Shown in pieces: positions 2,538 to 62,382 of a DNA stretch of 64,000 nucleotides (position 1 is the first letter of the stretch; each line of letters begins with the position of its first letter). Position numbers and translations under genes: made by a program. The notes below the pieces were generated by a model. That model worked only from the letters and a program-made list of their open reading frames with translations. It ran no database searches and had not been told where the DNA came from. Source of the DNA: Chiloscyllium plagiosum (taxonomy: Eukaryota); NCBI RefSeq assembly GCF_004010195.1, contig NC_057748.1, positions 1,749,276 through 1,813,275 of the forward strand, in the 5' to 3' direction.

Positions 2538-2581
2538 TTTGGGGGCCATCCTTTCCACTTCACAAAATATTCCACTCTACC
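2538..2581 (-). CDS. CBX7: Chromobox protein 7, coding exon 2 (GRVEYFVKWKGWPPK); downstream exons lie left of the window
   Basis: Minus strand reads ttgacag|GGT AGA GTG GAA TAT TTT GTG AAG TGG AAA GGA TGG CCC CCA AA|gtaagt. The exon is 44 nt and joins exon 1 in phase. The chromodomain cage tryptophans are present and WPPK is CBX7-like. Confidence 0.9.
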
Positions 2582-3732: not shown

Positions 3733-5237
3733 TCCCTCAGCACTGACCCTCTGACAGTGTATCACTCCCTCAGCACTTACCCTCCGACAGTGCGGCACTC
3801 CCTCATCCCTCAGCACTGACCCTCCGACAGTGCGGCACTCCCTCAGCACTGACCCTCCGACAGTGCTGCACTCCCTCAGCGCTGACCCTCCGACAGTGCG
3901 GCACTCCCTCAGCGCTGACCCTCCGACAGTGCGGCACTCCCTCAGCGCTGACCCTCCGACAGTGCGGCACTCCCTCAGCGCTGACCCTCCGACAGTGCGG
4001 CACTCCCTCAGCGCTGACCCTCCGACAGTGCGGCACTCCCTCAGCGCTGACCCTCCGACAGTGCGGCACTCCCTCAGCGCTGACCCTCCGACAGTGCGGC
4101 ACTCCCTCAGCGCTGACCCTCCGACAGTGCGGCACTCCCTCAGCGCTGACCCTCCGACAGTGCGGCACTCCCTCAGCGCTGACCCTCCGACAGTGCGGCA
4201 CTCCCTCAGCGCTGACCCTCCGACAGTGCGGCACTCCCTCAGCGCTGACCCTCCGACAGTGCGGCACTCCCTCAGCGCTGACCCTCCGACAGTGCTGCAC
4301 TCCCTCAGCGCTGACCCNNNNNNNNNNNNNNNNNNNNNNNNNNNNNNNNNNNNNNNNNNNNNNNNNNNNNNNNNNNNNNNNNNNNNNNNNNNNNNNNNNN
4401 NNNNNNNNNNNNNNNNNNNNNNNNNNNNNNNNNNNNNNNNNNNNNNNNNNNNNNNNNNNNNNNNNNNNNNNNNNNNNNNNNNNNNNNNNNNNNNNNNNNN
4501 NNNNNNNNNNNNNNNNNNNNNNNNNNNNNNNNNNNNNNNNNNNNNNNNNNNNNNNNNNNNNNNNNNNNNNNNNNNNNNNNNNNNNNNNNNNNNNNNNNNN
4601 NNNNNNNNNNNNNNNNNNNNNNNNNNNNNNNNNNNNNNNNNNNNNNGCGGCAATCCCTCAGCACTGACCCTCCGACAGTGCGGCAATCCCTCAGCACTGA
4701 CCCTCCGACAGTGCGGCAATCCCTCAGCACTGACCCTCCGACAGTGCGGCAATCCCTCAGCACTGACCCTCCGACAGTGCGGCAATCCCTCAGCACTGAC
4801 CCTCCGACAGTGCGGCAATCCCTCAGCACTGACCCTCCGACAGTGCGGCAATCCCTCAGCACTGACCCTCCGACAGTGCGGCAATCCCTCAGCACTGACC
4901 CTCCGACAGTGCGGCAATCCCTCAGCACTGACCCTCCGACAGTGCGGCAATCCCTCAGCACTGACCCTCCGACAGTGCGGCAATCCCTCAGCACTGACCC
5001 TCCGACAGTGCGGCAATCCCTCAGCACTGACCCTCCGACAGTGCGGCAATCCCTCAGCACTGACCCTCCGACAGTGCGGCAATCCCTCAGCACTGACCCT
5101 CCGACAGTGCGGCAATCCCTCAGCACTGACCCTCCGACAGTGCGGCAATCCCTCAGCACTGACCCTCCGACAGTGCGACAATCCCTCAGCACTGACCCTC
5201 CGACAGTGCGGCAATCCCTCAGCACTGACCCTCCGAC
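3733..5237. repeat. Large 33-bp minisatellite array interrupted by an N-gap (4318-4646)
   Basis: More than 30 near-perfect 33-bp units. The array explains the repetitive ORFs on both strands. Confidence 0.95.
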
Positions 5238-6197: not shown

Positions 6198-6957
6198 AAG
6201 AACACGGTGTGATGGGGACTGGTACAAACAATCGTGAAGATTCTTGGAATAAACATGACCAAAGCTTATGTGTAATAGTGATCTCATCCTGTCTCCGTTT
6301 GTACATTGAGTTTCTTTCCCTGTCTGTACCCCATGTACTATGATTGTTATTAACTGTCCAGTAATTTCTCGTTTACTAATTAGATTTGGGTCACAAGCCT
6401 GCTTTCTTGTTACTGAAATCTCCCTGTAAAATTGCAAGTTACTTCTTACAAGAAACAATTAATTGGATTATGTTTCGAATAAACAGACTGAACAACTCAA
6501 ATCCCTGCCGGACTCTGCCCTTTTACAGATAAGTACAAAAGATTTGCAACTTCCAAAAGCTGCCTCACTGACTGAGCAATTTTAAACTCCCTCAACGCTC
6601 GCAACCTCATCCTCTCAGTCCATCCTCAGTAAGGAATTTTAACACTTTGTAATTATTCCAGTTCAAATAACCCTCCTACCCCTCTCCCTTCCCTCGGTAG
6701 CTGGGCAATGCATGAATTTTTGTCTTGCATTATTTATGTAATTCATCGTTTAATTATTGAGTTTAACACAGCAGCACTGTCCCTCCTGCTCTACATCTCT
6801 TCCGGAGCTTCTGCACCAGCTGACGGCGTGTGGCCAGTTTTGAAAGCAGTCATTTATTTTATTATTGGGGAAGGGGGTTGGGGAGGTTTATTAATTGCCT
6901 TCAGTGGTTTTGGAAGTTGTTAAGGCTAGAGGTGTTTTGTATTTGTCGCAGGATTAC

Positions 6958-7026
6958 CTTTCTGATGCGCTTCTTGCTGATATTCTCCACGGCAAACACT
7001 TGCTCTCCTATTGCAGACAGCTCCAT
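6958..7026 (-). CDS. CBX7: Chromobox protein 7, coding exon 1 (MELSAIGEQVFAVENISKKRIRK)
   Basis: Minus strand reads ATG GAG CTG TCT GCA ATA GGA GAG CAA GTG TTT GCC GTG GAG AAT ATC AGC AAG AAG CGC ATC AGA AAG|gtaatc. The exon is 69 nt, phase 0. It matches the CBX7 N-terminus MELSAIGEQVFAVESIRKKRVRK as recalled. Confidence 0.92.
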
Positions 7027-7310
7027 AAAGGCAGACTCACAGCTTTCTTCCTGCGCAACATTTTCACCAGCGCGTCCCCGACACTCTCTCTCTCTCTGTT
7101 AGTTCACCCGTGCACGCGCACAGCCATACGCGCTCCCCACCCCGTGCATGAGCGCCCCCATTGCACAGGAACGCGCCCCGGTCCCACACGCAAAGTAATT
7201 CTCACTCGTTCACACAGAACTTTCGAAGTGAATAAAAACACCGGGGGGAGCTCACCCTTTCACGGGTTCACCCCCACCTTATGCAGCACTTGGTGCACTT
7301 TAAGATTAAA
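7027..7310 (-). promoter_or_regulatory. Probable CBX7 5'UTR/proximal promoter (small CpG-rich patch)
   Basis: CpG cluster immediately upstream of the ATG, with an NRF1-like TGCACGCGCA at ~7111. Confidence 0.45.
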
Positions 7311-7430
7311 GTGAAATTGCAGCAACACTCTTATAGCAGGAGGCCATTCATCCAGAGGGACTAGGAGCAGGGGGAGTTATTCAGCCTCCCCCAGTTATTA
7401 GATTCATGGCTGACCATCACATGCAATTCT

Positions 7431-7750
7431 CAGGACAAGGTAAGAAGTCCCTCAATATTAGGCTATAGTCCAACAGGTTTGTTTGAAATCACAAGGTTTC
7501 AGAGCGCTGCTCCTTCGGTTGGTGAACTGTCTGCAATAGGAGAGCAAGGGGTTGCAGTAGAGAATATCAGCGAGAAGCACATCAGAAAAATAACCTGATG
7601 TAGTGTGACTTCTGACTTTGCCCAGTCAGTTATTTTATTATTGGGGAAGGGGGTTGGGGAGGTTTATTAATTGCCTTCAGTGGTTTTGGAAGTTGTTAAG
7701 GCTAGAGGTGTTTTGTATTGTCACAGGATTACGCAGGCACCTCCACATCT
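7431..7750. mobile_element. Palindromic Penelope-type short repeat carrying inserted copies of CBX7 exon 1 and intron 1
   Basis: Left arm is 'ggacaaggtaagaagtc...tatagtccaacaggtttgtttgaaatcacaag' and right arm is 'taacctg...gtgtgacttctgactttg...ggcacctccacatc'. Inserts are at 7527-7588 and 7623-7732. Confidence 0.7.
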
Positions 7751-8029
7751 TGGCAATTCTGAGGAGGTATCATTGAACCAGAAACATTAACTCTGTTTCT
7801 CTCTACGCAGATGCTATCTGACCTCCAGCAGTTTCTGATTTGGGGTGTTTCAGACCCAAAGTTCTTTTTTGGATTTTGTTCAACTCGGCACCACTGTTCC
7901 TGCATATCCTCATACCCTCTGATCCATGTAGCCCCAAGAACTCCTTCCGGAAAACATTCAATGTTTTGGCCTCCACCACTTTTCATGGTAGAGAATTCCA
8001 CAAGCTCCCCACTCTCTGAGTGAAGACAT

Positions 8030-48035: not shown

Positions 48036-48237
48036 CTATTGAATAATGAGGTCACCAAGATGACAGCGATGGAGTAGGCAATGTCCGGACTCCTCAGCCT
48101 GGTGCTTGTCGCCGAAGGGCCTGTTTCCACACTGTAAGTAATCTAATCTAATCTAATCTAATCTATTGAATAATGAGGTCACCAAGATGACAGCGATGGA
48201 GTAGGCAATGTCCGGACTCCTCAGCCTGGTGCTTGTC
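48036..48237 (+). mobile_element. 52-bp SINE/LINE 3' tail insertion flanked by a 75-bp direct duplication
   Basis: 48036-48110 equals 48163-48237. The insert is gccgaagggcctgtttccacactgtaag(taatc)n. Confidence 0.85.
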
Positions 48238-60664: not shown

Positions 60665-61066
60665 ATAGAATCCCTACAGTGCGGAAGCAGGCCACTCAGC
60701 CCATCAAAACCACACCGACCCTCTGGAGAGCATCCCACCCAAGCTCACCGTATTTCCCTGCTGGGATGGAAAGATCCCATGATACTCTTTCAAAGAAGAG
60801 CCTGAAATTTCTCCCTGGTTTTCAAAACAGTACGGGGAATTGTCTTATGAGGAAAAATTGGACAGGCCTGTACCCACTGGGGTTAGGAAGGCTCAACCTG
60901 CATTTCCCATGGCCAGTCCACCTAACTGCACTTCTTTGGAGTGCAGGAGGAAACCAGAGCAAACCCACGCAAACTCCACACAGACAATCGCCCAAGGGTG
61001 AGATTGAATGCGGGTCCCTGGCACTGTGAGGTAGCAGTGTTAACCACTGAGCCACCGTGCCACCCC
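60665..61066 (-). mobile_element. HE1-like SINE (interrupted)
   Basis: The reverse-complement head 'gagccaccgtgccacc' is at 61050-61066 and the tail 'catagaatccctacagtgcggaagcaggcc' is at 60664. Confidence 0.7.
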
Positions 61067-61585: not shown

Positions 61586-61890
61586 TAAGGTCAGAAGTCA
61601 CATGACTCCAGGTTATAGTCTAACAGGTTTGTTTGAAATCACAAGGTTTCAGAGCGCTGCTCCTTCGGTTGGTGAACTGTCTGCAATAGGAGAGCAAGGG
61701 GTTGCAGTAGAGAATATCAGCGAGAAGCACATCAGAAAAATAACCTGATGTAGTGTGACTTCACTTCACTTCACTTCACACGGTGCTACGAAAGCTTGTG
61801 ATTTTAAATAAATCCTTTGAACTATAACCTGGTGTCATGTGACTTCTGACCTTGTCCACCCCGAATCTAACACCAACACCTCCACATCAT
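61586..61890. mobile_element. Palindromic Penelope-type short repeat carrying a CBX7 exon-1 copy
   Basis: 61622-61762 is identical to 7472-7612. The exon copy is at 61677-61738. Confidence 0.75.
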
Positions 61891-62382
61891 AGTTTTGTAA
61901 GTCTTGGCAGTGTAAGTGCGCATCTAAATACTCCTGAGGGTTTCTGCCTCTCCCCTTATGGGCAACGATGGTTCCAAATGCTTGGTAACAAACTAAATTC
62001 TTGTTGAAGTATAGTCACTGTTGTAATGTCGGAACCGTAGCAACCAGTTTATATTCCCACAAACAGCAAAGTGACAATGATCAGATAATCTGTTTCTTGG
62101 TGATTTGAGGGTTAAATGTTGTTTTAAAGACCAGGGAGAAATTTCAGGCTGCTCTTTGAAACTGTGTCAAGGGATCTTTCCATCCCAGCAGGTAAATAGG
62201 CCTCAGTTTAATTGCTCAAACTATACATGGTCTCCAGGTATGGTCTCACCAAGGCCCTGTACAATTGCGGCATTAATTTTTCACTCCTATATTTCTGTCT
62301 CTTTGCAAGGAATGCTTGCTTTCTTAATATCTTGCCATACCTGCATATTTATGTACAAGAACACTCAGAACCCTCTGAATGT

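What the first reader, a model, noticed from the sequence alone, without database searches (positions are those of the whole stretch)
7431..7750. CBX7 exon 1 and intron 1 copied into a palindromic repeat ~500 bp upstream of CBX7
Seen: 7527-7588 is an inverted copy of CBX7 coding exon 1 (56/62 nt identical by manual alignment), with the ATG and splice donor lost. 7623-7732 is a direct copy of the adjoining intron-1 start (6847-6957, ~3 differences). Both sit inside one Penelope-type palindromic repeat, with microhomology at the junctions (CAGTC; TAA.CCTG). Inference: this is templated capture of host-gene sequence by template switching or retro-transduction. Any minus-strand transcript starting upstream would fold back onto the CBX7 start-codon exon, and a plus-strand transcript would be an exon mimic.
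Basis: partly seen in the sequence, partly recalled or inferred. Interest (0 to 1): 0.7.

Follow-up and report, generated by a model that had tools for sequence, protein, structure and literature searches.

The report
Retroelement scar carrying two CBX7 fragments
An old jumping-gene insertion just upstream of the shark CBX7 gene, present in three related species, carries two short copies of that gene's first exon and first intron; they are likely harmless patches copied from the neighbouring gene while the insertion was being sealed.

Summary
7527-7588 copies CBX7 exon 1 inverted (56/62), and 7623-7732 copies the start of intron 1 directly (108/111). Contigs from three organism labels bridge the junctions, so it is no assembly chimera, and it predates their split. 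The pieces tile the source end to end and meet at the splice donor, with microhomology at all four joints. Best reading: template switching onto local sequence while the insertion was sealed. DNA or pre-mRNA as template cannot be decided; I slightly favour DNA. It is not transduction. The intron copy looks much younger than the element (3/106 against 13/94, p=0.007), which suggests gene conversion or a later patch. A second exon copy at 61.6 kb has no support in the runs laid and is likely a gap-filling error. No RNA test was obtained and no selection signal found. This scan has noted similar patches at Penelope junctions on other DNA. Verdict: new member of a known kind.

The parts
6958..7026 (-). 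CBX7 coding exon 1 (69 nt, ATG to donor); source of the exon copy
6847..6957 (-). First 111 nt of CBX7 intron 1 (GT at 6957-6956); source of the intron copy
2538..2581 (-). CBX7 exon 2 (chromodomain continuation)
7030..7250 (.). CpG-rich stretch (CpG observed/expected 1.07), likely promoter and 5' UTR
   Evidence: promoter role inferred
7423..7435 (+). Left copy of the target-site duplication (10-13 nt; the last 3 nt are shared with the arm start)
   Evidence: 12 of 13 identical to 7753-7765; 14 of 5000 random point pairs give 10 of 11 or better
7433..7526 (-). Inverted (tail-less) arm of the Penelope-like terminal repeat; hammerhead-like core mutated
   Evidence: 13 differences in 94 nt from the family profile
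7527..7588 (+). Inverted copy of CBX7 exon 1 (7020 to 6959), at the junction of the two arms, in place of the inner right arm
   Evidence: bridged in organisms A and B, covered in C
7590..7626 (+). 37-nt remnant of the direct arm and start of the tail; carries the microhomologies to both captured pieces
7623..7732 (+). Direct copy of intron 1 start (6847-6957), inserted in the tail; 7623-7627 and 7731-7732 are shared microhomology
   Evidence: right joint bridged in A, B and C
7731..7749 (+). Rest of the about 30-nt one-sided tail of the element
   Evidence: organisms B and C differ from A at 7733-7735
7753..7765 (+). Right copy of the target-site duplication
61622..61762 (+). 141-nt block identical to 7472-7612 inside another palindrome of the family (61587-61890); likely an assembly gap-filling chimera
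   Evidence: not supported by contigs

Best explanation
The unit at 7433-7752 is one old inverted Penelope-like insertion holding two copies of neighbouring CBX7 sequence, likely made by microhomology-guided template switching onto nearby chromosomal DNA while the insertion was sealed, and likely without function. Shown: the repeat anatomy, the target-site duplication, the microhomologies, the local source and the presence in three organism labels. Inferred steps: (1) the endonuclease cut both strands, and both ends primed cDNA on the element RNA, giving two like-stranded arms that cannot anneal. (2) The left arm's 3' end folded back onto the exposed plus strand of the left flank and copied 7020 to about 6950, which gave it a 7-of-8 match to the right cDNA end. 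(3) The right cDNA paused in the tail, primed on the same plus strand at 6957, copied 106 nt to CAGTC and returned to the element. (4) The direct 110-nt repeat has probably been homogenised with the intron since, by gene conversion; the 62-nt inverted copy has simply decayed.
For: One target-site duplication (12 of 13) brackets arms and both copies. Exon-copy divergence (6/62) matches arm divergence (13/94; Fisher p=0.62). The exon copy sits at the arm junction, where many other copies show deletions or fillers. Each piece has one short and one long microhomology. If the short one primes and the long one resolves, as PMC7165422 reports for templated insertions (passages), both pieces were read from the plus strand, which 5' resection of the left flank would expose. 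The only 7-of-8 match to the arm end on either strand of 900 bp lies at the donor, which explains why the joint is there. L1 insertions with genomic DNA templated from near the site are reported in PMC11702581 (passages). In vitro a Penelope-like protein cuts and extends both strands and starts at two sites that define the tail (PMC11167929, parts 1-2 of 4). Hints of homogenisation, read from contig ends: intron and copy share unbroken contigs of 90 (A), 100 (B) and 97 nt (C); in B both appear to share the short T run; run X1 carries the intron base at 7723 where the assembly, B and C do not. No selection signal: A-C 3/110 against flanks 34/607 (p=0.35); A-B 1/125 against 17/500 (p=0.14).
Against: The strand inference is symmetric: if the long microhomologies primed, both pieces came from the sense strand, which fits pre-mRNA. 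First-round polymerase theta tracts are rarely over 10 bp (PMC7165422), so 62 and 106 nt need another polymerase, such as the RT. A discrete target-site duplication suggests protected rather than resected ends (PMC11702581), and about 590 nt of flank must be exposed. The intron copy looks too young for the same event (3/106 against 13/94, p=0.007; against arm-arm 9/34, p=0.00015). Conversion is only hinted: Logan contigs pop bubbles, their depths are ambiguous (B 13.4 against single-copy 9.6-17.7; C 38.3 against 19.9-29.7), and 7723 is a CpG site that can mutate repeatedly. Local patches are not a family habit: 2 of 85 element clusters (this one and one flank pair) against 25 of 2430 control spans, and that test missed the exon copy itself.
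Confidence: 0.45

Rival explanations
1. Same single insertion event, but the template was nascent, unspliced CBX7 pre-mRNA (or the displaced sense strand of an R-loop). The right cDNA jumped from element RNA onto the donor region and reverse-transcribed the exon. The second strand then switched at CAGTC onto the intron part of the same tethered RNA and ran up to where the first primer sat.
For: The long microhomologies (7 of 8, and 5 nt) both point to the sense strand as template. The two pieces are adjacent, non-overlapping and opposite in orientation, like twin-priming products, whose internal breakpoints lie within 1-10 bp (PMC11702581, passages). The intron copy ends exactly at intron base +1 and the exon copy at the exon end. 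An RT is on hand, and the likely promoter is about 200-400 bp away. RNA-derived patches at breaks are described (PMC5110952, passages).
Against: 6956 is simply the first AC on the plus strand after 6860, so a DNA-templated tract would stop there too. The donor position is explained by microhomology alone. The two priming ends face outward, unlike classical twin priming. Germline expression of CBX7 was not tested.
Confidence: 0.28
2. Two separate events: the exon patch at or soon after insertion, and the intron patch much later, by repair of a break in the tail shortly before organisms A, B and C split. No gene conversion is needed.
For: Divergence is 6/62 for the exon copy and 3/106 for the intron pair (direct Fisher p=0.077; p=0.007 against the arms). 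The intron patch is a clean insertion that loses only 1-2 nt of tail. In A alone, 3/106 fits an origin just before the split (P=0.16 at 5.6% divergence).
Against: The two source segments abut within 1 nt, a coincidence for independent events. Identical runs of at least 60 nt in B and 61 nt in C are unlikely even for the youngest possible origin (P about 0.03 each at 5.6%; about 0.18 each at half that rate).
Confidence: 0.18
3. Whatever its origin, the unit is now a regulatory element of CBX7: an antisense sequence to the first splice donor on a divergent transcript, a pair of poly(A) signals that stop upstream read-through, or a fold-back partner of the start-codon exon.
For: Kept in three organism labels close to the promoter. 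The intron copy stays 97% identical and is predicted to pair with pre-mRNA from base +1 at -192.7 kcal/mol. It carries two AATAAA on the CBX7 strand. Between-species divergence is slightly below the flanks.
Against: The divergence deficits are not significant (p=0.35 and 0.14). Flanking dead repeats are kept just as well. Two plus-strand poly(A)-type signals lie between promoter and unit. The exon copy has drifted, with four amino-acid changes and no in-frame ATG.
Confidence: 0.06
4. Assembly chimera at 7.5 kb.
For: The assembly is fragmented (101,977 contigs) and probably does hold a chimera of this same block at 61.6 kb.
Against: Contigs from three organism labels, with their own substitutions, bridge the joints. 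A diverged target-site duplication brackets the unit.
Confidence: 0.02

Closest known systems
Inverted pseudo-LTR insertions of endonuclease-bearing Penelope-like elements (PMC8557442 and PMC3846280, passages; PMC11167929, parts 1-2 of 4)
   Same: Inverted 5'-truncated terminal repeats, a one-sided tail of about 30 nt, a target-site duplication, a hammerhead-like core in the family, and an RT-bearing frame in longer copies.
   Different: No ORF is left here. The inner right arm is replaced and the tail interrupted by host sequence from 400-780 bp away. Host capture in PMC3846280 concerns whole genes framed by terminal repeats or long spacers, not two abutting local patches.
L1 insertions with locally templated genomic DNA, twin priming and RT template switches (PMC11702581, passages; its Figs S9 and S10 not seen)
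   Same: Extra sequence from near the integration site; adjacent pieces of one template in opposite orientation; microhomology at joints.
   Different: A different element class, germline and fixed across species; no poly(A); the two pieces are separated by a 37-nt element remnant and point outward from it.
Polymerase theta locally templated insertions (PMC7165422, passages)
   Same: Direct and inverted copies of flanking DNA; one short and one longer microhomology per tract; more than one round.
   Different: The tracts (62 and 106 nt) are much longer than the usual 10 bp or less, and the source is 400-780 bp away; the enzyme is unknown.
Class 2 templated sequence insertion polymorphisms (PMC5110952, passages)
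   Same: A germline patch with microhomology and small deletions, proposed to come from RNA.
   Different: Those come from distant loci and lack a target-site duplication; here the source is local and the patches lie inside a duplication-bounded element.

Membership tests
Endonuclease-bearing Penelope-like element (host repeat) | Reverse transcriptase ORF linked to the terminal repeat | tested here: met
   In L080 an RT-like frame (22-624, RVT_1 E=0.025, below cut-off) lies upstream of the arm on the same strand. Two of six homologues of the L071 frame that were scanned carry RVT_1 above cut-off. Copies align over 1.2-1.4 kb beyond the arm.
Endonuclease-bearing Penelope-like element (host repeat) | C-terminal GIY-YIG endonuclease with CCHH motif | tested here: inconclusive
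   The L071 frame 1874-2692 shows by eye two cysteines before a YIG motif and downstream histidines (motif as described in PMC8557442), but Pfam gave no GIY-YIG hit.
Endonuclease-bearing Penelope-like element (host repeat) | Inverted 5'-truncated pseudo-LTR | tested here: met
   Left arm 7433-7526 is inverted against 7590-7626; the same layout appears in many other copies and beside the ORF fragment in L071.
Endonuclease-bearing Penelope-like element (host repeat) | 30-40-bp tail at one end only | tested here: met
   The left arm stops at profile position 265 and the right side runs to 295.
Endonuclease-bearing Penelope-like element (host repeat) | Target-site duplication | tested here: met
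   7423-7435 and 7753-7765, 12 of 13 identical; 14 of 5000 by chance for 10 of 11.
Endonuclease-bearing Penelope-like element (host repeat) | Hammerhead ribozyme motif in the pseudo-LTR | tested here: inconclusive
   The family profile has a CUGAUGA, hairpin, GAAA arrangement (core motif recalled, minimal forms described in PMC4209133). Rfam gave no hammerhead hit in 10 loci. At this locus the core is mutated in one arm and replaced in the other.
Endonuclease-bearing Penelope-like element (host repeat) | Clade (Penelope/Poseidon, Neptune, Nematis) by RT phylogeny | not tested
   No tree was built.
Retrotransposon-mediated transduction | Flank of a source element carried to a new, distant site in one orientation | tested here: not met
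   The source is the target site's own neighbour, the pieces are in opposite orientations, and the intron piece occurs at 2 places only.
Locally templated insertion at a break (polymerase theta type) | Copy of nearby flank with microhomology at joints | tested here: met
Locally templated insertion at a break (polymerase theta type) | Short first-round tracts, rarely over 10 bp | tested here: not met
   62 and 106 nt against PMC7165422.
Locally templated insertion at a break (polymerase theta type) | Dependence on polymerase theta | not testable with these tools
   Ancient germline event.
Twin priming | Two adjacent pieces of one template in opposite orientation | tested here: met
   6959-7020 inverted and 6847-6957 direct, with a 1-nt gap at 6958.
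Twin priming | Pieces primed by the two chromosomal ends and joined to each other in the middle | tested here: not met
   The pieces are separated by a 37-nt element remnant and neither touches the chromosomal flank.
Twin priming | RNA template | not testable with these tools
   No splice junction is crossed, and strand use is symmetric between the RNA and DNA models.

The most novel reading that the evidence does not exclude
A Penelope-like reverse transcriptase copied one nascent CBX7 pre-mRNA twice, on both sides of the first splice donor. The intron copy has since been kept matched to the living intron by gene conversion for tens of millions of years, so that a transposon scar now acts as a built-in antisense or terminator element for a Polycomb reader gene.
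Probability: 0.05. Interest if true: 0.75.

Novelty: new member of a known kind. Interest (0 to 1): 0.32.

Why it matters
As it stands, it is a well-preserved fossil of how Penelope-like insertions are sealed, a step that PMC11167929 calls unvalidated. Two abutting patches in opposite orientation constrain the intermediate more than single patches do, and point to one exposed local strand used twice. If pre-mRNA was the template, it would be a germline example of RT hopping onto a host transcript in this class. If conversion is real, a repeat is exchanging sequence with the first intron of a Polycomb gene. The 61.6-kb duplicate is a practical warning that these palindromes can attract gap-filling errors in this assembly.

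Tried and rejected
No RNA holder was listed for 6800-7900. The one RNA run laid (X22, about 6% read, on the 61.4-62.1 kb stretch only) gave 0 reads, which is no test. X5 lacks cover over both patches, which proves nothing.

I first read the X1 depth of 11.8 on 7482-7619 as two copies. I rejected this after X2, from the same sample, gave 7.94 on a 178-nt contig whose length fits the 7.5-kb locus. I first took the shared base at 6907/7683 in B and C as proof of conversion, then downgraded it because bubble popping and the unknown species tree allow a single mutation.

A paralogous CBX exon as source was rejected. One contiguous exon-plus-intron capture followed by an inversion was rejected, because it would leave the arm remnant on the wrong strand relative to the tail (reasoning). 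The idea that local patches are common in the family was not supported: 2 of 85 clusters against 25 of 2430 control spans (L061 was dropped as a duplicate of L006; limits were 30 nt, 85% identity and 3 kb; the test missed the exon copy). An earlier filler test was insensitive because the profile ran into foreign sequence. Rfam gave only sub-threshold hairpin hits. The protein atlas gave no result. No PDGF gene lies next to the window, so the upstream neighbour is unidentified.

For flank divergence I used three contigs per species pair and left out X10 record 9 (3/177, inside intron 1). Literature searches listed no paper whose title or abstract start describes this locus; I saw only the listings for most hits, and subscription journals are largely missing. 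No supplements were read; Figs S9 and S10 of PMC11702581 may bear on the DNA-or-RNA question.

Full report
Observation. The minus strand holds a 69-nt coding exon at 7026-6958 followed by GT. It is CBX7 exon 1: best PDB match CBX7 with 20 of 23 residues identical, exon 2 at 2538-2581, a C-terminal CBX box 18 kb downstream, and a second CBX gene after it on the same strand. 7527-7588 matches the reverse complement of 6959-7020 at 56 of 62 nt, and 7623-7732 matches 6847-6957 at 108 of 111 columns. Four paralogous exon 1 sequences match the copy at only 36-40 of 66 nt. Genome searches find the intron piece at 2 places and the exon piece at 3; they score the best candidates only.

Reality and age. 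Four runs were laid on 6700-8000. X1 (organism A) gives overlapping contigs through the unit with 0-1 differences each, apart from a short break in the high-copy arm. X10 (B) gives 7482-7652 and 7693-7854; X15 (C) gives 7509-7618 and 7690-7968. The arm-to-intron joint has 31 or more letters on both sides only in A. In B it is covered by 26-30 letters, and in C it is inferred from contig ends. X5 has holes over both patches, which is uninformative. Flanks differ from A by 17/500 in B and 34/607 in C (counts, three contigs each, X10 record 9 left out). The structure is therefore real and older than these species.

The host repeat. The family is abundant (25 clusters in 567 kb of sampled sequence). 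Longer copies run into an RT-like frame and a frame with a GIY-YIG-like cysteine and histidine pattern. Pfam support is weak for these frames but above cut-off for 2 of 6 shark homologues scanned. The locus has an inverted tail-less arm (7433-7526), a remnant of the direct arm (7590-7626) and a 30-nt one-sided tail (to 7749). A 10-13-nt target-site duplication (12 of 13; 14 of 5000 by chance for 10 of 11) brackets all of it. These features match endonuclease-bearing Penelope-like insertions as described in PMC8557442 and PMC3846280 (passages). The hammerhead-like core is mutated in the left arm and replaced by the exon copy in the right arm; Rfam did not recognise it.

Junction anatomy. The order on the plus strand is left arm, exon copy (CBX7 sense), 37-nt arm remnant, intron copy (CBX7 antisense), tail. 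The exon copy has an imperfect short match on its left and a 7-of-8 match on its right. That match spans the splice donor and is unique on both strands of 6500-7400. The intron copy has CAGTC on its left and AC on its right, and costs the tail only 1-2 nt. The two sources abut with one base (6958) between them. Whichever microhomology primed, both pieces came from the same strand. If the short ones primed, as PMC7165422 reports for templated insertions (passages), it was the plus strand, which resection of the left flank would expose. If the long ones primed, it was the sense strand, which fits pre-mRNA and resembles twin priming (PMC11702581, passages). The stop at intron base +1 looks like an RNA signature, but 6956 is also the first AC after 6860, so it carries little weight. 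I give DNA 0.45 and RNA 0.28. Both are inferred.

Ages. The left arm differs from the family profile at 13/94 and from the other arm at 9/34. The exon copy (6/62) fits that age (p=0.62). The intron pair (3/106, summed over two lineages) does not (p=0.007 and 0.00015). Either the intron patch came later or it has been homogenised. Three hints favour homogenisation, all read from contig ends and tables: long identical runs in all three species, an apparently shared short T run in B, and the intron base at 7723 in X1. Against: bubble popping hides differences, depths are ambiguous, 7723 is a CpG site, and the species tree was not determined.

The second copy. 7472-7612 is identical to 61622-61762 over 141 nt, inside another palindrome, and ends at a short microhomology with that element's own right arm. 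In one search every listed contig carrying the exon copy stops fitting at 61762. The lengths left over (47, 40 and 6 letters) are exactly those expected for the 7.5-kb locus. X2 depth is 7.94, against 4.6-7.7 for six of its seven other listed contigs (one 11.1). No listed contig bridges 61762 onward, though the table is cut. A gap-filling chimera is likely; a recent conversion private to the assembled individual is not excluded.

Function. None is shown. Predicted duplexes are strong, but no RNA test was obtained. Poly(A)-type signals lie in the way on both strands. The exon copy has lost its ATG and changed four residues, and divergence between species is not significantly below the flanks (p=0.35 and 0.14).

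Context. Local patches appeared in 2 of 85 sampled clusters, against 25 of 2430 control spans, so they are uncommon; the test was not fully sensitive. Earlier notes of this scan describe single patches at Penelope junctions elsewhere; I did not check them. They led me to PMC3846280 and PMC11702581.

Verdict. A real, old, doubly patched Penelope-like insertion: a new member of a known kind, interest 0.32. The unusual points are the two abutting patches around a splice donor and the young-looking intron copy.

Noticed in passing
window 61587-61890: A second palindrome of the family holds a 141-nt block identical to 7472-7612; contigs from three organism labels do not support it, so it is likely a gap-filling chimera.
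   Followed up: partly
window 7438-7444: The left arm carries a consensus-like plus-strand splice donor (AGGTAAG), made by one change from the family sequence; it could matter only if a divergent transcript reaches it.
   Followed up: no
window 7243, 7255, 7723, 7837: Run X1 of organism A differs from the assembly by a 9-nt insertion at 7243 and three substitutions; at 7723 it has the intron's base.
   Followed up: partly
window 7733-7735: Three adjacent bases next to the right joint differ between A and both B and C; the B/C state matches a family variant at 16.9 kb, so A probably had a multi-base change.
   Followed up: partly
window 60751-60829 and 62120-62198: A 79-nt inverted pair (88.6%), not seen in the other sampled loci, flanks the 61.6-kb palindrome about 1.3 kb apart.
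   Followed up: no
window 48036-48110 and 48163-48237: A perfect 75-nt direct duplicate with a short spacer; possibly another assembly or repair duplicate.
   Followed up: no
window 3733-5237 and 1-186: A 33-nt tandem repeat array in CBX7 intron 1 (with a gap of N) and the same repeat family at the window start.
   Followed up: no
L036 (G000:C39:1720926-1720994): A second CBX exon 1 lies 35 kb downstream on the same strand; likely CBX6 (naming from recall of vertebrate synteny). No PDGF gene lies near, unlike the recalled human order.
   Followed up: partly
L026 1360-1492: A 133-nt internally repetitive filler sits at the centre of a family palindrome with no local source found.
   Followed up: partly
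L005 1437-1476 and 1973-2011: A 40-nt direct local duplicate (92.5%) next to a family arm; a possible templated or duplicated flank.
   Followed up: partly
L051 758-991 and 2982-3212; L090 3719-3792 and 3845-3918: A 235-nt inverted pair (91%) and a perfect 74-nt direct duplicate, not seen in the other sampled loci.
   Followed up: no
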